Origin: Gemmatimonadota bacterium
GTDB lineage: Bacteria; Latescibacterota; UBA2968
Direction: 5' to 3'
NCBI GenBank assembly: GCA_026705765.1
Contig: JAPPAB010000106.1
Coordinates: forward strand, 624 to 64,623
DNA: 64,000 bases
The notes under the pieces were generated by a model that ran no database searches, had not been told where the DNA came from, and saw only the letters and a program-made list of their open reading frames with translations. The translations under genes were made by a program, and so were the position numbers. Shown here piece by piece: positions 26,381 to 52,500 of this stretch. The stretch's first letter is position 1. Each line of letters begins with the position of its first letter.

Positions 26381-27214
26381 CTAAATGGTTTGAAACCACT
26401 GCTTATTGACAGTAACTTGTTCAACCAACTCAGTATTTACACCAAGCTGTAAGTCCTTCAACATCCCAGCAAGTGCATTACCGTCAATGAGATCCAGCGG
26501 CGGCGCACCATCGCGCTGTGCTTCAGTCCAGGCGTCTCGAGTGAACCTTCCCGTAGTTATCAATAAGCCCTTGTCGGCTCGGCCAACCATAGCCCCTCTA
26601 AAATCTCTAACTGTGGATGCCGTCACCGATCCAACATAACGTTTACACTGGAATATCACATGAAATGAAAGGAGGTTACCAAGTTTGACCACACCACGTC
26701 CATCAATACCACCGTCGCCAGCTTGCCCCGTGACCTCAACCTGAATAAAACCAGACTCCCGCAAGATGCGTTGACACAATCTTTCAAAGGCATCCGGCGA
26801 AATGCTCTGAACAACCTGGATAAGCTCATCCTCCCAACTCAAACTGTCCTTATCTTCCTCTTCAAGTTTTGCTTCGTCGCGTTCCGCTCTGGCTTGCTGG
26901 AAGAGTTTCTGCACGAATTGCCTGACTACTGTAGGGTCAACTGTCTCTGTTTGGTGTCCCTGCGACGTTAGTGCCCAGACACCGCGTGCTGAGTTCTCAA
27001 GTAGGCCGTAATTTTTCAGGTAATTTCTTGCCCATCCAAGACGGTAATTAAGCGTAGTTAGGTTGCCCTTATGTATGGTGTTTATATCTTCTTCCGACAA
27101 CCTGAGAATCTGAGCGACGCGATCCGACATCTCAGAGATAGAGCAAGAACCGCCCAGTTCGCGCAGGGCCTGTAATACGGGGTTGAACATCTTCTGGAAC
27201 TGTGGTAATGCCAT
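26381..27214 (-). CDS. mrr: Mrr-like type IV restriction endonuclease (Mrr_N winged helix plus PD-(D/E)xK catalytic domain)
   Basis: Start at MALPQFQKMF (AAAGGAGAA Shine-Dalgarno). C-terminal GQAGDGGIDGRGVVK...FQCKRY is the Mrr_cat signature. 36 bp downstream of the pAgo gene on the same strand. Confidence 0.75.
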   Translation of the reverse strand: MALPQFQKMFNPVLQALRELGGSCSISEMSDRVAQILRLSEEDINTIHKGNLTTLNYRLGWARNYLKNYGLLENSARGVWALTSQGHQTETVDPTVVRQFVQKLFQQARAERDEAKLEEEDKDSLSWEDELIQVVQSISPDAFERLCQRILRESGFIQVEVTGQAGDGGIDGRGVVKLGNLLSFHVIFQCKRYVGSVTASTVRDFRGAMVGRADKGLLITTGRFTRDAWTEAQRDGAPPLDLIDGNALAGMLKDLQLGVNTELVEQVTVNKQWFQTI

Positions 27215-27312
27215 GGATTCTCCTTTAATTTCCTGATTTGCTCTTGCTCTCAGGAATGCGCTTACCAGCCATCGCATAGTTGTCGGTGTAGGTCAGATAT
27301 AACTCTATTAAT

Positions 27313-28734
27313 TTACATAAAAAAACGAAATTGGTAGGGTGTCCGCCTTAGGCTTGGCATACGCTTGACCACCCGCGCGAGTACCTTCGCATAACCCATA
27401 GTAACCGGCAACGGGTCATACAGTGAGTCATTGTTCCAATTCATCTTTGAAAGCCCCAACACGGCACGTGCCGTGTCGTCCCACAACCCATGGCCAGCAT
27501 GACGCACCAACCTCAAGGGACGAGGAGTACTCCTGGAACCTTTAAAATAAGATCCTCTCTCACTGATATTTCTCACGTCACCATGTGTCCATAGAAGAGC
27601 ATCTCGGGGCCCAAGGTCAACCAGGGTTCCACGCGAAACTGGATAGGCAGCGGGATTCCCCTTAATACCACCTGCGGGCTCATCAATGCGCACACCGCGC
27701 CACCCCACATCTTCAACTACCTGCACGAGATCAATCGCCTCGCATAGGTGAAATGCCTCCATGCAACCTTTGACTTCATCTGCCTTGAACTCAGTGGTCT
27801 TATGCACCATAATCCGTCGAGGTAATCGCCCGGCGTGGCGTCGCCGATAGAGGTCGAGAGATCGGGACATTACCCGAAACATCTCAGTCCGTGATAGAAA
27901 GGGGTTATCACGATGCACTTCGACCTCATGGGCATTGTAGGCGATAAACTCCAAACCAGAACCCTCGGCATCGAACACCTGACTGCAGCATGTAACAAAA
28001 CGTGGATTGTTAGATTCCATTGGACGAACTGCGTATGAAATGCCGATATACGCTGTTTCTGAATCGGACTCCGCCAGCTTCCAAGGGACTCCGCCAGCCT
28101 TGACATAGAGCGCTAGGCCAATACGCCACATGACACTGGCTTGGCACGAGTATGTGAGGGCGCTGTCTTCCCTCACCAGTTGAATGGGTAATCCAAGGGT
28201 TGCCGTTGTTGCCTTCAGGTGATCATGAAGGTCGAAGTCTTCATCGGATACTCCGGCATAGCCAGGATTCCATCGCTGAGGGATGTAGATGAAAAGGACA
28301 TCAAACTTGCTCCTGTACGTCTGCAAACGCTGAATAGCTCGGACTAACCGATCAGCTAATACAATGTGCGGACGCGGCGAATTATTAAATTCGGTCTCAA
28401 GTTCCTGATCAAGTTCAATGCGGCAATCACTATCTGCCGCTCCCATATGCACACCAAAGACAGTCCGAAAACCCGGCCATTCGGGGAGATAATCCTTGCG
28501 TTCTCTCGGTATGTGCGTCGACTTAAGGCGCGTCATGAAGCTATATAGGTGGTTACTTTCCCCGGCGGGTGCCAAGGTCGCCACTCGGATTGGATCAGGT
28601 AATATGCCCGCGGAGTATGGGCCAAATCGCAATAGCCCACGCAATGGATGAATCTCACGGTCTGAAGTACGATCTGGATGGAAGATCAGGCTTGGCTCCG
28701 GTAGCCAGATGTGCGGGGCGATCTCGCTGTTCAT
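27313..28734 (-). CDS. Short prokaryotic Argonaute (MID-PIWI, catalytically inactive-looking PIWI)
   Basis: 473 aa. C-terminal PLPVTMGYAKVLARVVKR matches the Ago PIWI P-x-P-V-x-x-A...R motif. YIGISYAV sits where catalytic IGIDV is expected, so Asp is missing. Size and MID-PIWI-only architecture are typical of short pAgo. Confidence 0.75.
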   Translation of the reverse strand: MNSEIAPHIWLPEPSLIFHPDRTSDREIHPLRGLLRFGPYSAGILPDPIRVATLAPAGESNHLYSFMTRLKSTHIPRERKDYLPEWPGFRTVFGVHMGAADSDCRIELDQELETEFNNSPRPHIVLADRLVRAIQRLQTYRSKFDVLFIYIPQRWNPGYAGVSDEDFDLHDHLKATTATLGLPIQLVREDSALTYSCQASVMWRIGLALYVKAGGVPWKLAESDSETAYIGISYAVRPMESNNPRFVTCCSQVFDAEGSGLEFIAYNAHEVEVHRDNPFLSRTEMFRVMSRSLDLYRRRHAGRLPRRIMVHKTTEFKADEVKGCMEAFHLCEAIDLVQVVEDVGWRGVRIDEPAGGIKGNPAAYPVSRGTLVDLGPRDALLWTHGDVRNISERGSYFKGSRSTPRPLRLVRHAGHGLWDDTARAVLGLSKMNWNNDSLYDPLPVTMGYAKVLARVVKRMPSLRRTPYQFRFFM

Positions 28735-28829
28735 GATCCTACTCTCCGTGAGAATCCTGTAATAGGAGAAAGGCGATAGACCGCGTCTATACCATCGCCG
28801 ATATCCAGTGCCCGTAGATCGTTTTGAGG

Positions 28830-30473
28830 CTAGCCCAAGTGACGACTCCAGAACTCAACCAGATCGTTGAGTTGGCTGTTATAGCGTTTGACACTGCGTT
28901 CTCTACCGAAATCCGCTGAAATCATCTTGTTTTCTTGAGTGATACCATCGAATACGGTTCGTGGCTCTATCAGCAACCACAAGCGATCATCGGCCCAATC
29001 TAGGCGTATACCGATACCCTCGCGCCAGTGAAGCTCGGGGCTACCAGCAACTGTTCCAGTAAGCGTACCTACTAATTTCTCCAATTGTGTCCAGGTACTT
29101 GATTTTGGGTCGGTTGGGGCCAATAAGTCCGCTCTTCCGCGCCGTACAACCTCCAGACCGCGCTGACGTGCGATTGCACGAGTTAACGCTTCTCGAAGAA
29201 GACCTCGCTCGCTCGATTCATACCTTTGACGCTTGATTTCGAACGTATGAAGGTCAAAATCCGTAATGCCATGGGGCTCAAAAGCAGTGCGTACATCTGC
29301 ATCGGCACCAAATGCCAATACTCCGGCTTGGGAACGTGCAGCGATCACGTCGACGCCAGTGCGCTCTATCGCCTCTCGCACTTCGGCGGTGCCACCAATG
29401 TCACAGACGACGCGTCTACACACGCTCGGCAAACCAGTCACTGGCACAGCGTTGAAACGTACTACTGGCCAGCCCTGCCCGCCCGTTGGGCGTGGCGCTG
29501 CACTCCAGTGTCGGCGTTCTGAAGCAAAAGCGTCGAGCGTTGTAGTGTCGATGTCATCTATTTGGCGAATCAGATCCCGCAATACTTCGTCAAAGTTATC
29601 AATAGACACTATGCCCACTTCTATTCCCTTCTCATCTGCCTTGGCCAACAATTCACGAACGCGCGGCAACGGCTGACCTTCCCCGTGATGCAACCAAAAT
29701 AGCCCCGCCGGAAAGGCACCTGGCTGTTGAGTTGCTTCATCAAGAGCGTCCATAACTGAATCGTCACGACCACTATAGCCAACTACTACAAGTCCAAACC
29801 TACTACAGGAATCAATGAGAATATTTCTTAGATGTGTATCCTGGTGTCGCAGTTCTTCAGTGGTATTCTTGAGTCTCCGTGACTGAAAATCACCATGCAG
29901 CTTCACTTCCACCGGCCATCGCCCCTCATGAATTGCCTGCTCCCCTAATTCAGGCGCATCAAGGGCTACACTCGTCAATGAACCAGTTGTGTCATAAATC
30001 TTGGCGCAAGCGTCTGCCACCATGGCATCAAAATTCGTTGTCCATATCAGACGTGTACGATTGGCGCGCATCAGAGTTGCGAGAGCCAAGTGACCGTATG
30101 ATGGTTTTGCACCTGCTAGCTTTGCATTAATATAGGCACGCCGATCTCCTTCGGATGGATACACCTCTTCAAATAGTGCGGCATATTCGCCGGGATCCCC
30201 AGCACAAGGCAACCGCTTAAAAGAGTCAATGTAGGTCTGTAATTGCACCTGGATAGCCGGATTTGAGAGATCTGCCACAGATTGGCGCGATACCTTGCGC
30301 TGACTGACAAACAATTCCTGTTTGAATTGCCAGATCATGTCCGTCGCGGTAGGAAGACCAGCGGAGGCCGAGGCACCAGCACCAAGCAACCACATCAGAT
30401 TGGGCGAACGTATAGAGAAGCGTCGTGCGAAGTCGTCCGAGTTGATTTGAGGAAGTAATGACTTAGTATTCAT
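28830..30473 (-). CDS. SIR2-APAZ protein (NADase effector partner of short pAgo, SPARSA-type)
   Basis: 547 aa. N-terminal SIR2 signatures LLGAGASASAGLPTATD, WTTNFDAMV and VKLHGD. A roughly 250-aa C-terminal region of APAZ size. Encoded immediately upstream of the short pAgo gene with a 96-bp gap on the same strand. Confidence 0.8.
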   Translation of the reverse strand: MNTKSLLPQINSDDFARRFSIRSPNLMWLLGAGASASAGLPTATDMIWQFKQELFVSQRKVSRQSVADLSNPAIQVQLQTYIDSFKRLPCAGDPGEYAALFEEVYPSEGDRRAYINAKLAGAKPSYGHLALATLMRANRTRLIWTTNFDAMVADACAKIYDTTGSLTSVALDAPELGEQAIHEGRWPVEVKLHGDFQSRRLKNTTEELRHQDTHLRNILIDSCSRFGLVVVGYSGRDDSVMDALDEATQQPGAFPAGLFWLHHGEGQPLPRVRELLAKADEKGIEVGIVSIDNFDEVLRDLIRQIDDIDTTTLDAFASERRHWSAAPRPTGGQGWPVVRFNAVPVTGLPSVCRRVVCDIGGTAEVREAIERTGVDVIAARSQAGVLAFGADADVRTAFEPHGITDFDLHTFEIKRQRYESSERGLLREALTRAIARQRGLEVVRRGRADLLAPTDPKSSTWTQLEKLVGTLTGTVAGSPELHWREGIGIRLDWADDRLWLLIEPRTVFDGITQENKMISADFGRERSVKRYNSQLNDLVEFWSRHLG

Positions 30474-30555: not shown

Positions 30556-30852
30556 TCATACCGTCGGCTGTAGTTCATAGCGCTTGACCTTGATCTGATC
30601 TTCATTTTTGCGCGCTTGCACCAGATTATAGGCAGTCTGACGGCGCAACCAGAACTCGGCGTTGGACCATCCAGCCTTCTCCAACCGAATAGCCATCTCC
30701 GGTGAAATAGCCGCATGACCGTTCAGTACACGTGAAAGCGTGTGACGGGCTACGCCCAACACCTTCGCTGCTTCGGTAATATTCAGACCGAGGGGCTCCA
30801 GACAGTTCGCTTTAATACTGAGACCCGGATGAGGTGGATTCTTCATAGCCAT
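30556..30852 (-). CDS. higA: HigA-family HTH (XRE) antitoxin
   Basis: [36 protein letters not shown] helix-turn-helix. Follows higB by 16 bp. Confidence 0.8.
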
Positions 30853-30867
30853 GGCGTTTATCCCTTG

Positions 30868-31146
30868 TTAGTGATAATCAACCAAATCGACATCGTACAC
30901 GTCACCTTCTTCAAAGCGAAAGATGATACGCCAGTTGGCGGAAATCGAAATACTCCAAAATCCTTTCCGGTCGCCCTTCAGTGGATGAAGCCGATACCCT
31001 GGAAAATTGAGGTCCGAGGGTTTGTTAGCCTCGTCTAAGTCCGCCAAAACGAGTGCGATCCGTTCTGCCTGATCAGCACGCACTCTGCTGGGATCTCCGC
31101 GCTCATACAATCGCTTGAGGCCCCGATGTCGAAACGTCTGAATCAT
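30868..31146 (-). CDS. higB: HigB-family (RelE/ParE superfamily) toxin
   Basis: 92 aa. FRHRGLKRLYERGD ... GYRLHPLKGDRKGFWSISISANWRIIFRF matches the plasmid-maintenance killer HigB family. Confidence 0.8.
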   Translation of the reverse strand: MIQTFRHRGLKRLYERGDPSRVRADQAERIALVLADLDEANKPSDLNFPGYRLHPLKGDRKGFWSISISANWRIIFRFEEGDVYDVDLVDYH

Positions 31147-31255: not shown

Positions 31256-31669
31256 ATGATTACTTTATCAAGTAGTAAAGGAGAAACAATGGCTGGTGAA
31301 AATTATATTGCCGCGAATATCACTCGGCTGAGGCTGGACCGACAATTGACCCAGGAGGAACTCGCCCGAAAAGCGGGCATCTCACTGATGGCACTCAGAA
31401 ATATCGAGCGAGGAACTGTCGTCCCGCGTGCCCGTACCCTCACCGATCTTGGAAAAGCACTACGGGTTCCGATTCGCGACCTCGTGACACCTGTGCAGTC
31501 TCTCGAGACCGTGCGATTCCGACCTCAGTCACAGATACAGGAAGATCGCCTTTTGCGACTCGTGCAACAAGCACTTGAGCAGGAGCACATCTCACTCGGA
31601 CGTGCCGCTGAGATTCTGGGGCTAAGTCGTGAGGAAATGAGAAGGTATGCACGTGAGTGGGCGAGGTAG
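31256..31669 (+). CDS. XRE-family HTH transcriptional regulator
   Basis: LTQEELARKAGISLMALRNIERG helix-turn-helix. The likely true start is MAGENY at 31289. Confidence 0.65.
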   Translation: MITLSSSKGETMAGENYIAANITRLRLDRQLTQEELARKAGISLMALRNIERGTVVPRARTLTDLGKALRVPIRDLVTPVQSLETVRFRPQSQIQEDRLLRLVQQALEQEHISLGRAAEILGLSREEMRRYAREWAR

Positions 31670-34958: not shown

Positions 34959-35351
34959 TCAGACTCGCTCTTCCGCCCAGCGGACGACGGTTTCAGCGAT
35001 CTCCACTGCATCCAGGTATTCCTGTTCCTCAACCGGATTGGACAAGCCTGGATAGCGTGTGATCACGGCGTATGGGGTCAATCCCTCTGCCTTGAGAACG
35101 CTCTCCGGGATGATTTCTCCCACTTCTTCGAGCAGCGACAACAAATGAGCCAGATCATGCACGTAAGGAAACTCAATGTCGCACTTGATCAGCATGGCCT
35201 TAACAGCTTTCTCGGCGGCCTGCTGAGCCTCGAAGCACAAGTCTTCCAGATAAGCATCGGGCACGCGGTTCTTCGCCAACGCGAGATTGCTTCTGGCGCG
35301 GTTCAACCACTCTCGCGGATCATCGGCCGGAAAACGCTCAGGAGGCTTCAT
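34959..35351 (-). CDS. HEPN-domain protein
   Basis: 130 aa. All-helical. Pairs with the upstream minimal nucleotidyltransferase; 14-nt overlap. Confidence 0.7.
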   Translation of the reverse strand: MKPPERFPADDPREWLNRARSNLALAKNRVPDAYLEDLCFEAQQAAEKAVKAMLIKCDIEFPYVHDLAHLLSLLEEVGEIIPESVLKAEGLTPYAVITRYPGLSNPVEEQEYLDAVEIAETVVRWAEERV

Positions 35352-35664
35352 AAACTATCCGCCCTTCCTTTAGGGCTGGCTTAATGATCAGCGCATGGCT
35401 ATCCCTGAAGCGTTCCACATCTTCAGATGACACTACGACCGCATCAACCGCAACTCCGACCCCATGCAACTTCCGGTAAATTTGCGCCATGAGATTGCGT
35501 GCATCTCCTCCATCTTTGACGATGAGCAGATCGATGTCACTATTCCGCGTCATTGCGCCTCGCACGGCGGATCCAAAGAGTATAATTCGCTGCGGCTGTG
35601 CCACTTCCACGACACGCTTAATGATATCGTCCAACGTATTTTGGTCAAGCACCTGTTTCTTCAT
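35338..35664 (-). CDS. Minimal nucleotidyltransferase (MNT) domain protein, HEPN/MNT module partner
   Basis: ILFGSAVRGAMTRNSDIDLLIV (GS...DxD NTase motif). 108 aa. Confidence 0.75.
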   Translation of the reverse strand: MKKQVLDQNTLDDIIKRVVEVAQPQRIILFGSAVRGAMTRNSDIDLLIVKDGGDARNLMAQIYRKLHGVGVAVDAVVVSSEDVERFRDSHALIIKPALKEGRIVYEAS

Positions 35665-35722: not shown

Positions 35723-38700
35723 TCAGACTGCTTGCATCAGTTCCACCAGAACTTTTGCTAGATCGTCACGTTCCACCATCTCCTGTTCCCTTTTGTCCAA
35801 CTTTCCTGTTTTACCCACCCTCTCGTAACCCCTCTCCTCTGTTGCTTCGCCCAGAAGGGTGAAATACTGCATGCTGTCTTCCAAGTAATACATGATTGTC
35901 TCCACCCACGTCGTCGGGTGTACACTTATTTCTGTTGGATAAGGTATCTTGTCTCCGATGTACTTCTGCACTATGGACTCTAATGCCCTCCGCACGTCCT
36001 TATACCCCGTGTATTCTTCTGGGTCCTGTGCCAGTTCGTCTACTAGCACTCGTATCCGGCTTCCTAGATAATCCAAGTACTGCCGCTGGGTCTCGACCTT
36101 CACACCATCTGGCACGAGAACCCACAGGGCGTCGAGTTCCCCAAGTTCACCTTTCGGTTTCCACCACACCTTGCCTTCCATATCGTACTTTTTTTTGTTC
36201 CAGCTATCGTCGTTGTCGATCTCAGAGCGCGGACTTTCGCCGGCTCCGGTATCCTCTCGCTGCACAAATTTAAGCTCTCCTTGTTCGCTATCAGTTTCAC
36301 GCGGTTTTTGGCGATTATTAGACGGCTCAGGAGTGCGTTCAAAAGGTGGTTTAGTTGATGCTCTCTCGCGTTTCTTTATTTTTGTCTTTTCCGCTTTACC
36401 ACCTCCCGATGCACTCGCTGGGAAAATTCTCCTTTCTTCTAACATGGGCCACAGCTTCTCCAGCGCGATCTCCCTATTTGCATAAAAGGCCGATTCTCGG
36501 ACCCGAAAGAACTCCCAACCACAACGCTCCAGTTGCCGCTGCCTCTCCATGTCCTTATCATACTGATCTGGACCGTGCCAGGTATCACCATCGCATTCGA
36601 CCGCCAATCGCGCTTGCCCACCTTCGATGGCAAGGTCAATTCTCCTGCCAGCAAACTCAACTTGAGGTTGAACGTTATATCCTTTTCGTACGAGTTCCAG
36701 CGTAACGTCAATCTCGAACCAGCTATCGAAGGGGTCAGGTGGGTTAATGACCTTTCGATTGTCCTGTGCGGCCCGACGTTCGAGTTCCTCCCGGTCTATG
36801 CCAGCAATCGCTTGCGGTTTCGTATTCTCAAAGAATTTGAGCAATTCTTGACGCAGATCGGATGTGCTCAGATCGTTGACGGTTACAGAATGAAAAAGAA
36901 ACATCTGATCTCGGGCACGGCTTGCCGCAACGTTGAACCGCCGCTCATCTGCCGGACTTGCAAGTGGGCCAATTCTCTCATTAGATGCCGCGACCATGGA
37001 CAGGAATATAACGTCACGCTCATCGCCTTGGAAACTATATGAGTTTCCGCAAACGAGATGCCGCCGCTCCATCTCTTCTGCGCCTATTCGTTCAAGTAAC
37101 TTTCCCTCAATCAACCTTGCCTGTGCTTCTCCCTGGAGAACAACAACGCCCATAGTTTTTTCGGAATATCGCCCGTCATCACATAATTCCAATATCTTCT
37201 CGACAATGGCGTCGGCCTCCGGTCGGTTCACCACCCCATTCCCAACTCCTTCGCGATACCCGCTTTCGATAAAGACGCGCTCCAGCGGGTTCAAGCGCTC
37301 AGGCCCATATTGCCGCAACGGGATTAACGGCGTGTCAGAATAGCAGAGACCATTGCTGAAACGAATAATTTCTGGCATGCAGCGGAAGTGCTCACGCAGA
37401 GTGATATGCCCTTCGTCATATAGCCGTTTTCCATGGTCGAACAGGCTGCTTTGAACGGCAAAAGAGTCTTTGAAGTCAAAATCATATAGTAAGTCGTTCA
37501 TGAGACGATGTACAGCATCAAGAGGTAAGCCAACAGCATCGGGACTGATCTGCTTGTCATCCCCAACAATGAGTACTTTTTTGCCCAGATAAAAGAGTGG
37601 CAATGCCTCTGGTCCGCATTGCGATGCTTCGTCAATAATGACCACATCGAATATACCGGGAGCAGGGTCCACCGTATCCCAGATGCGGTGTAGTGGCATG
37701 ACCCAGGCCGGGACTGCCTCACGGCATTTGTTCAAGTGCTGCTGTGCATCCCGTCGATGCTTTGGAGCGTGCCTCCCGGTTCCTTTCCCAAGACGACCCA
37801 TTGCTTGCTGCCAAGCTACCATGTGGCCGCGATGGCTACTTTCGAGTCGCGATAAGCAAAACGACCAAGCATGAAGTTCTGCAAGTTGTGCAATGACTCT
37901 GTTAATTTCATCCTCAATCTGGTGCGAACGTATAGCAAGGCTTGGGGCATCTTCCTTCTTTATATATTCATCGATCCAGAACCTTGCTTGAGCCCAATGC
38001 CAGGCATTCTCTACCTGTTGAACGCGCTCGTCCCAGCAAGACTTAGTGCAGCTTTGCTCCAATTCTACGGTGAAATTCGGCACAAATTGGCGCAGCTTCT
38101 CAATGTCTGCATCCAACTTTCTCATCTTCTGACATTCATCCTTTAGACTTTGTGTCGCCTTCGCGACCTGTTTATATCCTTCGATATCTCGATTGCGAAT
38201 CGCCTGAAGCAAGTCGCTTACAACGGAATGGGCATTAGTCCTCCCGGCAAGAGACCCTATTGGTTCTTCAATCTTCAGAATCGCCTTTTCAGCCAATTGC
38301 TTGAGCGCGAACCTGCAAGAGGCAATCAATTGATCAATCTGAGCCTCGTCATTCCAATCAGGTGTTCGGAGAGCGGGGCACTGTCTCAGAGACTCAATGC
38401 AATCATCACGTCGTTTCCCAAGTGACAGAGCATCGGCAAGAGCGTCGCACATTTCCTTGAGCTTCTGGAATTGTAAGGCATAAGTGCCTTCTTGTTCCTC
38501 ATATCCCACCCAGACTTCCCAGGCCTTTTCAAGCTCAATAAGCACGTGAAAAAAATCAGCCGCAACTGACAAATGGTGGAGATTGGAGCAGAAACTACCA
38601 TCCACTTGAACAGTTTTGACTATCTTGGGACGGAACGGCCACCAGCCGAGTTTTCCGCCATTTTCCAAATGCCTTTTCAGATTGCTGACATCTTCATATA

Positions 38701-40816
38701 GCGTCCTGATGTCGGCCTCGTCTGGAAATTTGATGTTCGTTTCACGAACTACGGAAAGGCGCAGCTCTATAGCGTCTATTGCCCCTTGCGTCACAAGATG
38801 ACGTTCAAGCCACAGTGATTCATTACCACTGGCGATATCGCGCAAGGCGTTGCTCATCCACGAATATGGCGATATTGATAACTGACGCCTCAAATCGCTG
38901 AAAGCGGTAAGAGAATCGTGAATTTTTCTTACGCTTTCAGCATCGATATCCGATAGCGCATCTGCATCTTGTTCGTTGCCCTCAGTGGACGATAGTTCAT
39001 GTTCGCGGTGCGCTCGTCTCTCTGAATCAACAAGCTCGGCAAACTGCGCGGCAGACGATAGTTCGTCAGGCCATACAAGATCCAACTCTTGCCGTTTTTC
39101 CAAGCTGAAGTGACGCAACTTCCTCAATAGGTCTCGCAATTTATCTGCGGTGATCGGACATGTCTTGTACAAAGGGACGGTGTCGGTGAACCAGCTATAG
39201 ACGCTGCGATCCTGATTGACTGACTTAGCTATACGCGCTGCGGTACCTCGGTAGGTCCCTTCTGCAACGGATTGAGAATGCGTTTCGGATTCTCTGATGT
39301 CGCGTAGGCGTCTATCGACTTTGGCTTTCTCTTTTCGCAACTCTTGTAGCTTGTTTTCGAGCGTCTTGATTTCGCTTTTTGCCCGGTCCTCGTTCCAATC
39401 TTCGCTCTTGCGAAGAATTCCGCTGACGCTCAATTCGAGAGATTTCCCTTCTTCCGGTCCCGAACCCAGTAGATTGATGTATAGCGGATGTAACTCTTCT
39501 GGCACAAGTCCGTCGAGAACCTGGAGCGCCCGCGGTGTCTTGGCGGTGATAAGCGTTCTCTGCCCTGTCGCGAGCAAGTGGCAGATGAGATTCGCAATCG
39601 TGTGGGATTTTCCAGTGCCCGGCGGTCCCTGTACGAGGACGCCACTGGTAGTTCGTATCTTATCTACGATGCGACGTTGTTCTTCATTCCAGGGTTTTGG
39701 AAAGAACAATTCACCATCGAAACTACTGTTCGTTTCGCCGGGGTCCTGCTCTGAAACATCACTATCACTGTTCGTCTGAATCTCAGCAAGGTCCTTAAAT
39801 TGAGAAGGAAAATCCTCTCCATCCTCTATTTTTCCCTTAATTCGCTTCAATGTCTCGGTGAGGCCCCTTACGGATCGTTTTCTCAATATAAGAGCCGGTG
39901 CATATTCAACGACTGGTTTGTCCAATGTCAGGTTATTTGTCGCTTGCAGCGTGCTATTGTATTCGCCTTGAGAACTGATTGAATGGACGAGGGCCTGAAG
40001 AACACCTTCGACGCAGCTTCTGTTCCAGGGATCATCGTCCGCAGCCTCAGATAGCGAAGCCTTTGCGTTTTCTTCGGCGCGTTCGGGTTGTTCCTCAATG
40101 TCCAACATATCCAGTTCAGGTCGAACGTTTGCGCCATCCGGCAGTGGCCGTACAGTGAACTTGCCTAATTTCGCTTCAAATTCGAGAGCGGCGTTTGCGA
40201 CAATCAGGTGACGGCGGACTCGCTGACCGTTCGGCGTTTGCCAGATAAGCAGACCGAGCGCGAGGACAAGTTCGTACTCCTCACTAAGCCGAAGTTGCTC
40301 CTGATGGATAACAAAGAGCGTTGTGTAAACGCTATGTATGCTTTCCCAGTCGTTATGCTCTTCCATCCATGGCAGCCAATGTTCTTCGACGTATTTATCC
40401 CAAGCCTCCTGAACATCGGGATAATCTTCAAGGCGTTCGATATAAAAAATAAATTCAGGCTGATCGGTCCCCTCCTGCCAATCGAGATTTTTTACCTGCT
40501 TCGTTATTTCAGGCAGGAGATCGGGAATATCGTTTTTGTCTCGAAGGGACTCGTCTTCAACCCAGTCTTCGCAGATAGAAGGAACGCCAGGCAACAGCGG
40601 TTCCTTCTGGTTCTGGATTTCTATCCACACGTCAGAATCGAAATCTTCGTCACGTCCCCACGCCTGTGTGAAACACCCTTTAAGCTTTGGAATATCCTTT
40701 AACCAAAGCACATTTTGATACTCGTCAACGTCCCTTGTGGTCCTGGTACGCAGCACTGCAAGCCGGGTCAGATATTCGACAAGGCGCATAACTTTGTCTT
40801 TGTAGTTATTTTCCAA
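35723..40816 (-). CDS. 1697-aa multidomain protein: DUF4011-like N-terminal region, SF1 Upf1/DNA2-like helicase (AAA_11/AAA_12) and C-terminal Vsr/DUF559 PD-(D/E)xK endonuclease domain
   Basis: Walker A [18 protein letters not shown]. Walker B VIIDEASQ. Motif-VI-like [13 protein letters not shown]. C-terminal [47 protein letters not shown] is the DUF559/Vsr-like nuclease fold. Long coiled-coil linker regions. Confidence 0.8.
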   Translation of the reverse strand: [1697 protein letters not shown]

Positions 40817-47066: not shown

Positions 47067-49511
47067 TTAGAACAACAAGACCGATACCGACTTCTGGATC
47101 ATGGCAATAGACACCGATGCCATGCCCACAAGCGCCATGCCCACAGAAAAGCCCACCATTAACACCGCTGCATAAATACGCCATTGTTGCTTGCCAAAAC
47201 GCTTCCAGAAATAATAGCGAGCAATCAACGCACCGATGATCTCGGTGATCATAAAATGTGGAATACTGGTCAAACTGCGTATATAACCAAAAATCAGCAA
47301 GATGGGTAATCCAAATATGGACAAAACAATGAAGAATACAAGTCCTATTGCAAATCCGGTGCCAATAACCCAGGGTTTTAGAGCCTCAAACAAAATGGGC
47401 TGATCATCTGACGACTGTAAAAATGCTCCGTCAAAAGAAGGCACCTGATCGATCTCGTATTGATAGAACAATTCTCGGTCCTGGGGATCCATCGCCCGGG
47501 AAATGATCATTTCTGGATTTGGCGTACCCAGATGCGCGCCATTGTTCGCACTGCGTATTTCTGGAGCAGAAGGCAACCCTTGTGCTAAAGCATCGGAAAT
47601 ATCGGGGGGCGCGCGACTCAGTGTTGCGGGCGAATATGGTGGGGATTGTGTATCATCAAAATTGGTGTAAAAATAAGCTGTGCTCGACCACGGCCCATAC
47701 CTGCGCTCGTCATCGGGTACACTATCCGGATCATCGGGTGTTGCCCGCACCCGCCAGTACCACCACGCATTATTCGACAAATTGGCTGGCGTCCACGTTA
47801 CGGTGCCCTCCTCGGAATAGTCAACTTCCCCACGCATGGTACTGGTAATCCACACACACCGCTGAAGGGCGTTCAACGGCCAGAACAATTGCACATATGG
47901 ATAGGCATCGGAAGGAATAGGCGCGAGTTTCCAGATGTAGGACCAGTACATAAAACTGGTCAGAAAAACCAGCGGCACCATAAAAATCTCAGCCTTCAAA
48001 ATGCTCGTAAATTTGGTACCAGTCAACTCGATCTCTCGGAAACGCTGCGCTGCTGCGCCATAGTTATCCAGACCAAAATCCACAAACCAGATCTCAATCC
48101 CCCGGAAACCACTGAGAAAAATGGTAGCTTGTTTAATGTACGGAATACTCACGTTTTGCCCCACCATACCATCTAAACGGGCATTGACAAATGAAATGAG
48201 AGGCGTATATACAAATGCAAAAATAAAGAAAAAGATCAGTAGAGTGACGGTGACCAGTTGCGGAAAAAGAATTTTTGACAGAACAATGGTGTACAAACTC
48301 GCTATACAAAACAACACCACGCAAATCCAAATCCTGAAATCCCCCCGCCCGGGCGGCGTTTCCCACGATCCCTTCTCGGTCTTTTCAATCCGCGCAGTTC
48401 GCACCCCGCGCCACACCTGATAAAATCCAATAACAGTAATGGCAAATGTAATACCAATGCCAAAGCTCATCCAGAAATCAATACCCGTCACAAAATGGGT
48501 CTGAATGGTGTCCATCCCCATAAACCAGTGCGGCATAAATCCATAATGGTGTAAAATGGGACTTGCAATTGTATGGATCATCACGCCTATAAAAGCCCCC
48601 ATCACGGCCCAGAATGGGGCGAGAAAACCCGCAAAAATGGGTCCCAGATGGAGGGTAAAGCCCAGTGGGGTTGCAGGTAAAAAATATCCCGTATATTGTG
48701 TGAAATCGACAAATGGAATCGGGATAAGCTGCACCGGTTGTTCCATAAACGCACCCGTAATGGCTGGTACAGCTACATAAAGCATCCCCCACACCAGGCC
48801 GATCACCGCCCCAACAGAAAACATGCGCCAGCGCCACGTAATATCCCCGCTGCTCTCTTCTGCCAATGCCATAGCCCCCTGTGCCGCGATAGGTGCAAAT
48901 GGAAATGGCAACTTCTCGTAATCGGACGTGATGCGGAACAACACATAACTGGCGGAAAACCAGGCAATGCGACCCATAATCGTGCCCAGTATCAGCAATG
49001 CTATGGGCCAAAACCAATCGGCGTGTAAAAACGTGCGCTCGATCAGCGCCTCGGAATTTGCCTTCGGCGCGTACCACCACAATTCGCCCAGTGCTTTTTG
49101 TATGCCAAATTGTACGGCTGCGGGCGACTGCACAAAATACTGATTCCACAATAGACCTTCAAAAGCATTGGACTCTCGATTGACCAGCGCAATCGTCACG
49201 TAATACAGCAGATAAATTTCCTGTCGCTTGAGTACAGTAAACGAGCGCTTTGCCAACTCGATAAACAAAATAATCGTGACCCACTGCGCCGCCGCGCCAA
49301 TGGAGCCACCGATCATCAGTTCCAGATAAATATTGCCTGGCACCATCACAATCGAGACAAATAACGCACCCACAATGGTCTTTGTATTAAAGCCATCGGC
49401 ATATTCGTCGGGCGTTTCGAGCAGATCGCGATACTCTTCAATCTCTTCAAACTGCGTATTTTTCTTTGGTGGTTTGTCTTTGTTGCGTCTTAAAAGATTG
49501 CCTAAAGCCAT
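47067..49511 (-). CDS. 814-aa polytopic membrane protein with a large extracytoplasmic insert; paralog-like to the 54043 ORF
   Basis: Many hydrophobic helices. Shares a motif region (EKLPFPFAPIAAQGA versus ERLVFPAMAPLIDM) with the 668-aa protein two genes upstream. Confidence 0.6.
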   Translation of the reverse strand: MALGNLLRRNKDKPPKKNTQFEEIEEYRDLLETPDEYADGFNTKTIVGALFVSIVMVPGNIYLELMIGGSIGAAAQWVTIILFIELAKRSFTVLKRQEIYLLYYVTIALVNRESNAFEGLLWNQYFVQSPAAVQFGIQKALGELWWYAPKANSEALIERTFLHADWFWPIALLILGTIMGRIAWFSASYVLFRITSDYEKLPFPFAPIAAQGAMALAEESSGDITWRWRMFSVGAVIGLVWGMLYVAVPAITGAFMEQPVQLIPIPFVDFTQYTGYFLPATPLGFTLHLGPIFAGFLAPFWAVMGAFIGVMIHTIASPILHHYGFMPHWFMGMDTIQTHFVTGIDFWMSFGIGITFAITVIGFYQVWRGVRTARIEKTEKGSWETPPGRGDFRIWICVVLFCIASLYTIVLSKILFPQLVTVTLLIFFFIFAFVYTPLISFVNARLDGMVGQNVSIPYIKQATIFLSGFRGIEIWFVDFGLDNYGAAAQRFREIELTGTKFTSILKAEIFMVPLVFLTSFMYWSYIWKLAPIPSDAYPYVQLFWPLNALQRCVWITSTMRGEVDYSEEGTVTWTPANLSNNAWWYWRVRATPDDPDSVPDDERRYGPWSSTAYFYTNFDDTQSPPYSPATLSRAPPDISDALAQGLPSAPEIRSANNGAHLGTPNPEMIISRAMDPQDRELFYQYEIDQVPSFDGAFLQSSDDQPILFEALKPWVIGTGFAIGLVFFIVLSIFGLPILLIFGYIRSLTSIPHFMITEIIGALIARYYFWKRFGKQQWRIYAAVLMVGFSVGMALVGMASVSIAMIQKSVSVLLF

Positions 49512-49532
49512 AGATTGTCCCGTGTATAGATA

Positions 49533-52500
49533 CTATGCGTTGGCCGCCGCTGTGGGAGCGGAGAGCAATTCCCGCCCTTTTTCCGTGTATTTGGTGCGAT
49601 TGGTTGGATCAACCGTCCGCCAGATCAAAAATTGTTTGCGAAGCGCGTTCATAAAGCCCTGATTGACCCTCCGCCACGATGCCGCATCACCCGAAAGCCG
49701 ATCTATTGTCAGCGTCATCGCAAAAATATTGTGCTCTCCCGTGGGCACGGCTTCAAAATGTACTTGCTGACTTACACCCAAATCATAAGGTGCCAACCAT
49801 ATCGTCGTATCAATCGTATATCCCGCGCCGGTTGCTGCTTCAATTGCACCAAACCGCGCACCATCTGTATAAAACGCACCCATGGACTCGCCCATGTGCG
49901 ACTCGAAATAATCGACCAGAAATACCGACAGCCCAAACACGTCTTTACCGCCCACTGTAAAGGGAAATTCAAAATGCCAGTGATCACCTTCCGGGTCGGG
50001 CAATTTCCAGCGACGCGTCACATCGGGCACGGCCATCATTGACGCCTGGCGCGCGGGATAGAGCGACGAAATTAAAACCACCACCATCACCAGTGCCGAA
50101 GAAATCACCGTTGACAATGCTGAATAATTCACATTAAGCCCTTGCAACCACCCCTGCCACAACAAAACTTTGATCACGCCTTGACCGAGCAAATACCCCG
50201 ATACAGTCCCCAAAACAGCATAAACACACGCCTCGGCAATAAACAAAAAGGCGATGTGTACAGGTGCCAACCCCACAGAAGAATAAATGCTAATTTCGCG
50301 AAAACGCTCGTACACCGATCCCATCATCGTATTCAACACAATCAGTGCAGCCACCAGGATGGGAACGAACAAATTGGCGAGGCCGGGCAATGGCCCCCAT
50401 CCCAGCGAACTGTAAATCGATACCTGGATTTTGCCATCTTCCCCAGGAATACCCGCGTACACCACGACCGACAACCGCGATACATATTTTTTGACCTGTT
50501 CTTCAACATTTACATCTTCGCGCAAACGAATCGCCACAGATTGTAGTGGGCTACCCACCTCTCGCAATATCTTATAGGGAATAATGGCAATATCGTCGGG
50601 ATCAATATGCTCGAATGGCATGTTCTCGAGTTGGGGTTGTTCCAGACCCTGTCTTTCGCGATTCTCCTGCTGGGTCATCTGAGAGATGATTTCATCATCC
50701 GTCAGCTTAAAATCTGCCGGACTCAACATCTCCCCGTCCAGATCCGGGTGATTGCGCATTTTTTCCGCGTCGATCAACCCCACGACTTTCAATTGTTTGC
50801 CAAATAAGCGCACGCTCTTTTTGCCGATATCTTCAGGCTCTACCTTGAGCAATCCGGCTATTTTGCCGGGCAAAATACACGCAAATTCGCCCTCTTCAAA
50901 CCAGCGTCCATGGCTCAACAGAGTATCGATCCTCGTAACCGCCGGCTCATTAACAGCCAATCCCAATATCCCCAGCACTTTAGTCGTTTTTTCAGGCGTC
51001 TCGATAGGCGTCTTTTTCAAGTCTCGCGTCACATACCAACTGCGCGGCGCAATATCACCCTGATCAAAAAAATTGACGCGGGCATAATCATAAGCCGTAT
51101 CCTCCAGCGGTCCCCAGAACTGGCTGCGGATTAACAGTCCTGGATATGTGCCTTCGGTATCATCCAGAGGAAGTTGATGAAAATCGAGCGTCGTCTTGAT
51201 TGACGTAAAGGACAACACCGTAAATGTCAACAAGACCAGCGTGGCAAATGTCAGGCTCGTGCGCATTTTGCGCTTTTTCATGTTCGCAATACCCAACTGA
51301 AATGCCGCCACCGATGCACTTATTCGCCCCACATCCGTATCGTGCAACAATACCTCTTCTGTGCGCAGTTGTCGGATATTTTCGTGAAACCGCCCCGACA
51401 CAATGGAAATCACAAAAATCGCCAGTGCAAAAATCACAAAAGCCAGCAAAATCACAAACGGATTGGAGAGATCAAAAGCGGGATGCACCTGCGAAAGCAC
51501 GATCCAGATCACCATAAAAACCGCGCCAAAACCGCTGATTTGCACCCGGATATCCGAAAAGGTAAAAAGCAATCGCTCGACAAAAAACGCGCACGGAATG
51601 ACCAGTATCATAAAGAAAATCACGCCGCGGATCACATCGTTTTGCGTTGATTTCACGTCTGGATAGGCGCGCGATTCGAGACCCATGCCCGCGCGCGTGT
51701 GTTTGACAAACAAATCCCATTTCTTGTCTTGCATCGCCTCTTCTGCCAGATCCAGATGGTGTTTGGCCTGCGTGTGCAAATTGGTCATCCGCTGATTCTC
51801 AATCGAATACTTCTCCAATTCGCGCATTCGCGCCTCGTTCAGCGTCCACATATCTTTTGCAGCCTGGTAAGAAGAGCGAATAAACGCCCCACCGTGTTGT
51901 AAAATCTGGAAGCCATCGCCGCGTGCGACTTCCACGCTTTCCGCACTCTTTGAGTTCAACAACAAGTAGCGCACGCCAATCTCCCGCTCCCGCATCACAA
52001 TTTTGACCCGTTCGCCCGGCGTAGTAAAAATGGTTCCCACCGGTTCTTCTGGACCAAAACCGATGGCATAGCCGTATTCCTGTGGCGCAGTATTGCCGGG
52101 ACCGAGCACGCTGATACTCGATAACTTGGTGAGATAACGCGGATCGACTGTTTCGTAAAAATCCGTTGCAATACACGGAAATAAAATCCGCGTACGCTTG
52201 GATATCCACCAGTCCATATTAAATTCGCCCCGGTATATGCGCGCCTGGCGACCGTGATTGGGCGCGTACGTAATTTCGCCGCTTTCTGGATCCATATAAA
52301 AAGCTTTCACATCCACGCGACGTTCGGCAATGCCCGGCATGTAAAATTCGCCATTTTCATCGGCAATGTCGTAATAGACGCGACGCACGCCTTTAATCGA
52401 TTTGTCATTGCCCATTCGCAGCGAAGCCACAGCTCCGGGACGGGGGCGATCAGGTGTAATGCTTAGCCGGGGAAATGTGCGCACAAAACCCTGCAACCCT

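What the first reader, a model, noticed from the sequence alone, without database searches (positions are those of the whole stretch)
35723..40816. 1697-aa Upf1-like SF1 helicase fused to a Vsr/DUF559 endonuclease: single-protein defence candidate
After a roughly 400-aa N-terminal region (DUF4011-like, coiled coils) the protein has complete SF1 motifs (GPPGTGKSH; VIIDEASQ; VAASRARDQMFLF) and ends in a DUF559/Vsr-like PD-(D/E)xK domain (IDLAIEGG...ECDGDTWHGPDQ...). The architecture is widespread but functionally uncharacterised. It is reminiscent of helicase-nuclease defence proteins (Mokosh-type COG1112 helicases use a PLD nuclease instead), and here it sits among TA and restriction genes.
Basis: partly seen in the sequence, partly recalled or inferred. 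Interest (0 to 1): 0.65.

Follow-up and report, generated by a model that had tools for sequence, protein, structure and literature searches.

The report
Stand-alone helicase-nuclease, likely anti-phage defence
This gene encodes a very large single protein that joins a DNA/RNA-unwinding motor to a DNA-cutting enzyme; it belongs to an unnamed but widespread sister family of known anti-phage proteins (Hhe, ProA), so it is a credible but untested immunity gene, not a new kind of system.

Summary
The 1697-aa ORF (35723-40816, minus strand, TTG start shared by two orthologs) is real. It has an intact Upf1-like SF1B helicase core and an intact Vsr-type MTES_1575 nuclease.

Three details need correcting:
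- Walker A (aa 397) and motif II (aa 1059) are about 650 aa apart.
- The protein does not end at the nuclease. A drifting ~70-aa linker and a 162-aa orphan domain follow.
- No DUF4011 is detected; a profile-profile test gave only a weak hint.

The protein is neither Hhe nor ProA. It scores 134 bits against a cut-off of 2000 for Hhe, and 194 against 1500 for ProA. It belongs to a large unnamed sister family:
- at least 559 species genomes and 1783 clusters at 50% identity;
- about 60-65% identity across many phyla.

The family's N-terminal domain models confidently (pLDDT 89) and has no solved structural analogue by Foldseek.

The gene has no conserved partner. Related copies lie inside BREX, restriction-modification, CRISPR, Dnd and DarTG islands, and in Mu-like phages. 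More distant relatives sit on plasmids.

In the window it abuts an MNT/HEPN toxin-antitoxin pair. It lies 5-9 kb from a SIR2/short-Argonaute system and an Mrr enzyme.

Verdict: a plausible single-gene defence helicase-nuclease, and a new variant of a known kind. The function is untested and no formal enrichment test was possible.

The parts
35723..40816 (-). Complete ORF, 1697 aa plus stop; TTG start
   Evidence: The same TTG start is used in orthologs P0001 and P0002. dN/dS is 0.1-0.28 over the core.
39689..40816 (-). Family-specific N-terminal domain, aa 1-376. It is Trp-rich and contains the motif EEYELVLALGLLIW...RRHL.
   Evidence: No Pfam hit. AF2 with a 45-sequence alignment gave pLDDT 89 and pTM 0.79. 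No Foldseek match in the PDB, best E 0.33. In the top 150 hits of 1783 clusters it sits at the N-terminus of 1450-2000 aa proteins or their fragments. Similarity to DUF4011 is only weak.
39422..39688 (-). First part of RecA-like domain 1, aa 377-465: Walker A GPPGTGKSH 397-405 and motif Ia LITAKTPRAL 422-431
   Evidence: AAA_11, AAA_30 and AAA_19 hits. Motif positions.
37682..39421 (-). Insert of about 580 aa between motif Ia and motif II, aa 466-1045. It is presumably helical, analogous to the stalk or prong insertions of Upf1 and Sen1.
   Evidence: AAA_11 is split into two stretches. The ProA model aligns through the insert. A weak match to a three-helix-bundle chain spans profile positions 556-757. 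The structure was not modelled; helical character is inferred.
36797..37681 (-). Rest of the helicase core, aa 1046-1340: motifs II (VIIDEASQ), III (IVGDDKQISP), IV, V and VI (RRFNVAASRARDQMFLF)
   Evidence: AAA_12 at aa 1122-1307. PDB sequence hits to Upf1, Sen1, IGHMBP2 and DNA2. hhalign to Klebsiella Hhe gave probability 99.8.
36422..36796 (-). Vsr-fold MTES_1575 nuclease, aa 1341-1465. Candidate catalytic residues are D1394, E1407, D1409 and H1414.
   Evidence: PF18741 6.7e-30. D1394, E1407 and H1414 are invariant and D1409 is nearly invariant (at least 90%) in 21 sequences. E1407 aligns with the ECDG glutamate of Hhe, E1727 in the Klebsiella protein.
36212..36421 (-). Low-complexity charged linker, aa 1466-1535
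   Evidence: dN/dS is about 0.95-1.56 among three orthologs. Composition is rich in E, K, P, S and R.
35726..36211 (-). Clade-restricted orphan C-terminal domain, aa 1536-1697
   Evidence: Found only in the window, P0001, P0002, P0121 and L001. No Pfam or PDB hit. Identity is 91-94% and dN/dS 0.14-0.17 in two of three pairs. Its position is taken by wHTH, Gre-C, DUF3320-like or no domain in other family members.

Best explanation
The gene encodes a self-contained nucleic-acid immunity enzyme of the Hhe/ProA type.

Shown here:
- an intact Upf1-like SF1B ATPase/helicase core;
- an intact Vsr-fold nuclease;
- no conserved partner gene;
- patchy, horizontally spread distribution;
- frequent residence of relatives in defence islands, prophages and plasmids.

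Inferred mechanism:
1. The resting protein is auto-inhibited. The conserved N-terminal domain and the ~580-aa insert hold back the motor or the nuclease.
2. An infection-associated nucleic-acid structure or protein lets the motor load and translocate 5'->3'. Candidates are ssDNA or forked replication intermediates, free DNA ends, or phage SSB-coated DNA. The polarity is that of Upf1-like helicases.
3. The tethered Vsr-type nuclease nicks or cuts the DNA that is being unwound. This destroys the invader genome, or the host's too if the outcome is abortive.
4. The flexible linker and the swappable C-terminal domain act as an adaptor that sets where the enzyme is recruited. That domain is an orphan here, a wHTH in most relatives and a GreA/B C-domain in some.
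For: Core intact.

Homology to anti-phage models:
- PADLOC: PDC-S37 1e-59, MkoC 1e-37, Hhe 3.5e-31.
- NCBIfam: ProA 2.6e-57 over aa 379-1510, Hhe 4.7e-39.
- hhalign to an annotated Klebsiella Hhe: probability 99.8, 34% identity over aa 1008-1464, with the nuclease ECDG motif aligned.
- The Hhe nuclease mutant E1731A loses defence (10.1101/2022.06.16.496414).

Stand-alone gene: no neighbour cluster recurs in more than 6 of 80 loci.

Contexts of relatives:
- Dnd plus AAA_15/DUF4276;
- BREX, type I restriction-modification and type III CRISPR;
- HinfI restriction-modification, DarTG and Fic;
- transposase plus HEPN_RiboL-PSP island after guaA;
- fixed cargo of a Mu-like phage group;
- more distant plasmid relatives beside BREX, Wadjet and RM/AbiE.

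In the window: an MNT/HEPN pair is adjacent, and SIR2/pAgo and Mrr lie within 9 kb.

Purifying selection acts on all domains and the linker evolves neutrally. C-terminal modules vary.

Nhi is a precedent for a single-gene nuclease-helicase that nicks and unwinds DNA (PMC12904381).
Against: - There is no experiment on this family.
- Scores are about a tenth of the Hhe and ProA cut-offs, so the function is transferred across a large distance.
- Pfam and PADLOC scans of 148 neighbours from 40 genomes showed very mixed contexts, including housekeeping genes, and no recurring defence family.
- No controlled enrichment test was run.
- In the window's own clade the gene is syntenic in at least four related assemblies, with metabolic genes upstream.
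- Identity of 60-65% across phyla is unusually conservative for an immune gene.
- Substrate (DNA or RNA), trigger and outcome are all inferred.
Confidence: 0.6

Rival explanations
1. RNA- or transcription-directed surveillance, in the manner of Sen1, Upf1 or Mokosh. The motor would act on invader transcripts, R-loops or RNA polymerase complexes, and the nuclease would cut DNA at transcribed invader loci. This differs from a replication- or DNA-end-triggered DNA degrader.
For: The closest solved relatives of the motor are RNA or RNA/DNA helicases: Upf1, Sen1, IGHMBP2 and Aquarius. The Mokosh helicases MkoA and MkoC match at 1e-32 to 1e-37. Roughly 4-5% of family members counted carry a bona fide GreA/GreB C-terminal domain in the adaptor position (PF01272, 47.7 bits against a cut-off of 26.9). 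In Gre factors that domain binds RNA polymerase (established knowledge).
Against: The window protein has no Gre domain. The effector is a DNA-type Vsr/REase-fold nuclease. Most tails look like DNA-binding wHTH domains (PMC3710099 for DUF3320 as a wHTH). DNA2, another Upf1-like motor, works on DNA.
Confidence: 0.15
2. A housekeeping or stress-related DNA repair or replication helicase-nuclease, Dna2-like, that merely happens to lie near defence genes.
For: It is syntenic and under purifying selection in at least four related assemblies, with metabolic genes upstream. Sequence conservation across phyla is high. The DNA2 helicase core is a detectable PDB relative.
Against: The family is present in only a small, scattered fraction of species: 559 or more hits among 185,579 genomes, spread over unrelated phyla at about 60% identity. 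That pattern implies horizontal transfer. Copies occur in phages, next to integrases and transposases, and inside BREX, CRISPR, restriction-modification and Dnd islands. More distant relatives lie on plasmids. There is no conserved repair-gene neighbourhood.
Confidence: 0.1
3. A weapon or maintenance factor of mobile elements. It would serve phages and plasmids for competition between elements, host DNA degradation or addiction, and chromosomal copies such as this one would be domesticated or leftover cargo.
For: The gene sits at a fixed position in a diverged Mu-like phage group with 77-82% nucleotide identity in flanking structural genes. Eight IMG/VR contigs carry it. One copy lies beside an integrase remnant at contig ends. 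538 plasmids carry more distant relatives. In the phage and in one island it is coupled to an HTH_17 gene and a divergent Dam-type methyltransferase.
Against: Carriage of defence genes by prophages and plasmids is itself typical of defence systems, so this largely overlaps the main explanation. The window copy has no integrase, tRNA or flanking repeats nearby.
Confidence: 0.15

Closest known systems
ProA (NCBIfam NF058533, 'anti-phage protein ProA')
   Same: It is the best-scoring named model. A single alignment runs from Walker A through the long insert, the helicase core and the nuclease: aa 379-1510 against profile positions 653-1751 of 1903. The overall layout is therefore the same.
   Different: The score is 194 bits against an equivalog cut-off of 1500. 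The ~650 profile positions before the helicase are not matched, so the N-terminal region differs. I found no paper describing ProA in the library, so its mechanism is unknown to me.
Hhe (Gao et al. 2020; NCBIfam NF042953; PADLOC PDLC02194)
   Same: It is a single large protein with an Upf1-like SF1 helicase followed by a Vsr/MTES_1575 nuclease. The region from motif II to the nuclease aligns at 34% identity with probability 99.8, and the catalytic ECDG motif is conserved. Hhe is a validated anti-phage protein that depends on its nuclease (10.1101/2022.06.16.496414).
   Different: The score is 134 bits against a cut-off of 2000. Pfam finds no DUF4011. The N-terminal half and the insert do not align with Hhe; only a weak 93-column hint appears (E 0.026). 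The C-terminal tail also differs.
PDC-S37 (PADLOC phage-defence candidate, single gene)
   Same: It is the top PADLOC hit at 1.1e-59 and 200 bits, covering the helicase C-terminal half, the nuclease and the start of the tail (aa 1055-1499).
   Different: Only about 435 of the 1550 profile positions are matched in the best stretch. It is a candidate system with no demonstrated phenotype that I know of.
Mokosh helicases MkoA and MkoC
   Same: They carry a COG1112/Upf1-like helicase core. MkoC scores 1.3e-37 over aa 830-1329.
   Different: Mokosh uses a PLD nuclease (type II) or a separate partner (type I). Here the effector is a Vsr-fold nuclease and there is no partner gene.
Nhi (nuclease-helicase immunity, staphylococci)
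   Same: It works like this protein is proposed to work: a single-gene nuclease-helicase that nicks and unwinds DNA, with activity governed by phage SSB variants (PMC12904381).
   Different: No sequence relationship was detected here. PADLOC listed no Nhi hit at E<=0.1, although I did not verify that the library holds an Nhi model. The domain order and nuclease type differ.

Membership tests
Upf1-like SF1B helicases (Pfam AAA_11 + AAA_12) | Both Pfam domains above gathering score, with Walker A, motif II (DEAS), motif III (GDxxQ) and motif VI (NVAxSRA) intact | tested here: met
   AAA_11 scored 59.6 bits and AAA_12 59.1 bits, each against a cut-off of 27. The PDB relatives are Upf1, Sen1, IGHMBP2 and DNA2.
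MTES_1575 / Vsr-fold restriction-endonuclease-like nucleases | Match to PF18741 above cut-off, with the D...ExD...H catalytic constellation | tested here: met
   103.5 bits against a cut-off of 38.2, covering 1-95 of 96 profile positions. D1394, E1407 and H1414 are invariant and D1409 is nearly invariant in the family.
Hhe | Full-length match to the equivalog model NF042953 at 2000 bits or more | tested here: not met
   133.7 bits, and only aa 1036-1481 are matched.
Hhe | N-terminal DUF4011 (PF13195) | tested here: inconclusive
   No Pfam hit at E<=0.1. hhalign of 75 family N-termini against 118 DUF4011 sequences gave E 0.026 and probability 1.9% over 93 columns around the LxLGxGxLxW motif.
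Hhe | Nuclease-dependent protection against phages | not testable with these tools
   This needs a challenge assay.
ProA | Full-length match to the equivalog model NF058533 at 1500 bits or more | tested here: not met
   194.3 bits. Other members of this family and more distant plasmid relatives score 171-280 bits.
PDC-S37 (PADLOC) | Full-length match to the 1550-position model | tested here: inconclusive
   200 bits, with the best stretch covering only profile positions 937-1371. The tool gives no cut-off.
Mokosh | PLD nuclease domain (MkoC) or MkoB partner gene | tested here: not met
   Pfam finds no PLD domain. No partner gene is conserved.
Defence-island-associated genes (operational definition) | Statistically significant enrichment near known defence genes across genomes | tested here: inconclusive
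   Of about 8 independent chromosomal or phage contexts, 4 hold canonical defence systems within 10 kb, and all 3 plasmid relatives do. Pooled scans of 148 neighbours were heterogeneous. There was no control set.

The most novel reading that the evidence does not exclude
This would be an experimentally untouched defence family, sister to Hhe and ProA. Its conserved N-terminal sensor domain has a fold without a solved analogue. Its exchangeable C-terminal adaptors would dock one helicase-nuclease chassis onto different cellular landmarks: a wHTH onto DNA, a GreA/B C-domain onto RNA polymerase, and orphan domains such as the one here onto unknown targets. Immunity would then be coupled to transcription or replication complexes, not to free invader DNA.
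Probability: 0.15. Interest if true: 0.65.

Novelty: new variant of a known kind. Interest (0 to 1): 0.4.

Why it matters
Single-protein helicase-nuclease immunity (Hhe, Nhi, ProA) is known to exist. As far as the papers I could find show, how Hhe-type proteins sense infection and avoid self-damage is not established.

This family offers a well-behaved comparative handle for three reasons:
- It is large, spread across many phyla and highly conserved.
- Its N-terminal domain models confidently and has no solved analogue.
- It carries naturally swapped C-terminal adaptors, including an RNA-polymerase-binding Gre domain.

Showing that it defends, and what the adaptors bind, would help explain target recognition in the whole Hhe/ProA superfamily. 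For annotation, it shows that 'AAA domain-containing protein / very-short-patch-repair endonuclease' entries of about 1600 aa form a coherent candidate defence family. Neither the NCBIfam equivalog models nor the PADLOC profiles match that family at full length.

Tried and rejected
1. **DUF4011 membership.** Pfam was negative. hhalign against a single Hhe aligned only the C-terminal half. A profile-profile test was only weakly suggestive. I kept this as 'inconclusive', not as a domain call.

2. **A conserved partner gene or operon.** All-against-all clustering of flanking ORFs in 80 loci found none. A small HTH gene (HTH_17, HTH_3) precedes some copies but is absent in the window.

3. **The C-terminal domain as a separate gene.** L001 and the P0003/P0121 contig show it as a separate ORF. 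In L001 the split is caused by frameshifts and a short duplication inside the nuclease and linker of a long-read assembly. I treated it as an error or pseudogene. Three full-length orthologs keep the fusion.

4. **Pooled neighbour scans.** Pfam and PADLOC scans of 148 neighbours return only per-family counts. They were too heterogeneous to give an enrichment figure.

5. **First structure model.** AF2 of the N-terminal domain with 12 close sequences failed (pLDDT 45). It succeeded with 45 diverse sequences.

7. **The orphan C-terminal domain.** No homologues outside the clade, no Pfam hit, no PDB hit and no similarity to other tail types.

8. **Literature on ProA.** None was found.

9. **Mobile-element borders.** No flanking repeats or nearby tRNA mark a border around the gene. 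The promoter and terminator scan was no better than shuffled sequence.
Full report
**1. The observation**

The minus strand of 35723-40816 holds one open reading frame of 1697 codons starting at TTG. A GAAGG lies 7-8 nt upstream. The two closest full-length orthologs, P0001 and P0002, start at the same TTG.

- Walker A GPPGTGKSH, aa 397-405
- motif Ia, aa 422-431
- motif II VIIDEASQ, aa 1059-1066
- motif III IVGDDKQISP, aa 1083-1092
- motif IV, aa 1140-1151
- motif V, aa 1262-1273
- motif VI RRFNVAASRARDQMFLF, aa 1292-1308
- nuclease motifs RIDLAIEGG, aa 1392-1400, and AVECDGDTWHG, aa 1405-1415

Pfam gives AAA_11 (5.3e-16, in two stretches), AAA_12 (5.8e-16) and MTES_1575 (6.7e-30; 103.5 bits against a cut-off of 38.2). 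DUF559 is a weaker overlapping hit. MTES_1575 was defined as a novel Vsr-fold restriction endonuclease (PMC3710099).

Three points of the description need correction.
- Walker A and motif II are about 650 residues apart. The helicase core therefore carries an insert of roughly 580 aa.
- The protein does not end with the nuclease. A 70-aa charged linker and a 162-aa domain follow.
- Pfam detects no DUF4011.

**2. What family it is**

PADLOC places it nearest to the candidate system PDC-S37 (1.1e-59), then MkoC, MkoA and Hhe. NCBIfam places it nearest to 'anti-phage protein ProA' and then Hhe:
- ProA: 2.6e-57, with one alignment across aa 379-1510;
- Hhe: 4.7e-39.

Both scores are about a tenth of the equivalog cut-offs, 194 against 1500 and 134 against 2000. 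It is therefore a relative, not a member.

A genuine, annotated Klebsiella plasmid Hhe aligns only from motif II to the end of the nuclease (aa 1008-1464). Identity there is 34% and hhalign probability 99.8, and the ECDG catalytic motif is in register.

A profile of 75 family N-termini against 118 DUF4011 sequences gave one weak alignment: E 0.026, probability 1.9%, 93 columns around the LxLGxGLLxW / LYLAxGFLEW motif. This is a hint of distant common origin, not a domain assignment.

**3. The family is large, conserved and mobile**

A search of 5.8 billion proteins returned 3682 hits at E<=1e-10. The best 120 are 61-86% identical. Apart from five close relatives, they cover only aa 1 to about 1470 of the query. 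They come from Acidobacteriota, Armatimonadota, Planctomycetota, Desulfobacterota, Firmicutes, Pseudomonadota and others.

The N-terminal domain profile finds 1783 clusters at 50% identity. In the top 150 it always sits at the N-terminus of 1450-2000 aa proteins or their fragments.

Beyond the family itself:
- 538 plasmids carry relatives at 28-34% identity;
- eight IMG/VR contigs carry copies at 63% identity.

**4. Structure**

With a 45-sequence alignment, AF2 models aa 1-376 at pLDDT 89 and pTM 0.79. The model has an N-terminal helix, small sheets, a 48-residue helix (aa 133-180), long beta-hairpins (aa 181-225) and further helices.

**5. The C-terminal end**

After the nuclease, family members carry different tails. 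A rough regex count over 210 sequences gave:
- a wHTH-like ~80-aa domain in about half (107);
- no tail, under 40 aa, in 38;
- a Gre-type tail in at least 9; the one tested, from P0054, is a bona fide GreA/GreB C-terminal domain (PF01272, 47.7 bits);
- a DUF3320-like domain in at least 6 (weak hit; PMC3710099 describes DUF3320 as a wHTH);
- several other types.

The window's 162-aa domain occurs only in its own clade and matches nothing in Pfam or the PDB.

Among the window, P0001 and P0002:
- the core has dN/dS of 0.1-0.28;
- the linker has about 0.95-1.56;
- the C-terminal domain has 0.14-0.17 in two of three pairs.

The tail is therefore a selected, functional module on a drifting tether. 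Synonymous divergence at the 3' end (0.06-0.22) is well below that of the core (0.33-0.60). This suggests recent exchange of that module.

The apparent split of this domain into a separate ORF in L001 comes from frameshifts.

**6. Context**

*In the window.* The gene follows a run of metabolic genes: epimerase, amidohydrolase, Abhydrolase_10 and a zinc alcohol dehydrogenase that ends 22 nt upstream. It is followed after 58 nt by an MNT/HEPN pair.

Further downstream lie an LCM methyltransferase, a metallo-beta-lactamase-fold protein and a GFO/IDH oxidoreductase. After those come an HTH gene, HigBA, a SIR2-APAZ plus short pAgo pair (607 and 664 bits) and an Mrr type IV enzyme.

The same synteny holds in three sister assemblies. 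In them the toxin-antitoxin slot and the downstream island change content:
- RHH/ParE replaces MNT/HEPN;
- HTH, AAA_15/21, DUF4276 and HicB replace pAgo and Mrr.

The gene thus sits at the edge of a variable defence hot spot, but in this lineage it is itself stably inherited.

*Across 80 other genomes.* No neighbour is conserved. Pooled annotation of 148 neighbours is heterogeneous.

*Individually inspected contexts:*
- Dnd phosphorothioation genes plus AAA_15/DUF4276, MazE and transposases;
- BrxC, type I restriction-modification, PglZ and type III CRISPR RAMPs;
- HinfI restriction-modification, Fic, T5orf172/Eco57I and DarT/Macro;
- a transposase, HEPN_RiboL-PSP and Ymh island after guaA;
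- an integrase remnant with contigs breaking at the gene;
- a PemK toxin among housekeeping genes;
- a fixed position in a Mu-like phage group, preceded by an overlapping HTH_17 gene and a divergent Dam-type methyltransferase.

Three plasmid relatives lie directly after BREX brxL, near Wadjet, and between a restriction-modification system and AbiE.

This supports a defence role qualitatively. I could not run a controlled enrichment test.

**7. Mechanism**

*Shown:*
- an intact SF1B motor and an intact Vsr-fold nuclease in one polypeptide;
- no partner gene;
- purifying selection;
- horizontal spread.

*From established knowledge:* Upf1-like helicases translocate 5'->3' on single strands. The Hhe nuclease glutamate is required for defence (10.1101/2022.06.16.496414). 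Nhi shows that a single nuclease-helicase can nick and unwind phage DNA, with specificity set by phage SSB (PMC12904381).

*Inferred:* the N-terminal domain and the insert keep the enzyme off until an infection-specific nucleic-acid structure or protein is met. The motor then feeds DNA to the tethered nuclease. The C-terminal adaptor sets localisation.

*Rivals:* RNA- or transcription-coupled action, housekeeping repair, and a primarily mobile-element function. The Gre-tailed relatives and the RNA-helicase kinship favour the first. The patchy mobile distribution argues against the second. The third overlaps with defence.

**8. Verdict**

The architecture has validated members. This protein represents an unnamed sister family with a distinct N-terminal domain and, in this clade, an orphan C-terminal adaptor. 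It is a new variant of a known kind, of moderate interest.

Noticed in passing
window 27313-30473 (-): A two-gene short Argonaute system. The SIR2-APAZ protein is 547 aa (PADLOC Aga_SIR2-PNTD1-PNTD2, 1e-182). The class I short pAgo is 473 aa (pAgo_I, 2.9e-200). Together they look like a SPARSA-type NAD-depleting defence system.
   Followed up: partly
window 26381-27277 (-), 30556-31146 (-), 31256-31669 (+): An Mrr-type type IV restriction enzyme (Mrr_N + Mrr_cat), a HigB/HigA pair, and a divergent HTH_3 protein with a UPF0175-like tail. In sister assemblies (L001, L096) this slot holds HTH, AAA_15/21, DUF4276 and HicB instead. It is a variable defence hot spot.
   Followed up: partly
window 34959-35664 (-): An MNT (nucleotidyltransferase) / HEPN toxin-antitoxin pair lies 58 nt downstream of the helicase gene. 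The orthologous slot in the P0001 contig (L096) holds RHH/ParE instead. The junction therefore exchanges small toxin-antitoxin cassettes.
   Followed up: partly
window 35726-36421 (-), compared with L096 and L098: Synonymous divergence of the linker plus C-terminal domain (dS 0.06-0.22) is two- to five-fold lower than in the rest of the gene (0.33-0.60). This suggests recent recombinational exchange of the 3' module among sister lineages.
   Followed up: partly
P0054, P0064, P0119; L021, L026, L028, L038, L047 (C-termini): A minority of family members end in a bona fide GreA/GreB C-terminal domain (PF01272, 1.5e-12), which is the RNA-polymerase-binding part of Gre factors, fused after the nuclease.
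   Followed up: partly
L084 9798-14836; also L110, L111, L112, L116: A family member is fixed cargo in a diverged Mu-like-head phage group. It lies between a 1286-aa Dam-domain protein and the Mu F, portal and terminase genes. A 68-aa HTH_17 gene overlaps its start by 4 nt. The same pairing of HTH_17 with a divergent Dam methyltransferase recurs in a chromosomal island (L107, L109).
   Followed up: partly
window 47067-54050 (-): Two very large conserved genes lie upstream of the metabolic block. One is 814 aa with no Pfam hit. The other is 1505 aa with a single FtsX permease domain. Both are syntenic in all sister assemblies, and their function is unknown.
   Followed up: no
L001 13800-15000: The 86%-identical ortholog in a 3.4-Mb long-read contig is broken by frameshifts and a short duplication (DDSWNKKKYDMEGKVWWKP appears twice). 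This is either an assembly error or a pseudogene.
   Followed up: yes
P0064 (1919 aa), alignment A1 columns 730-1240: One family member has an internal duplication of part of the helical insert, containing a CxxC...CxxC zinc-ribbon-like segment.
   Followed up: no
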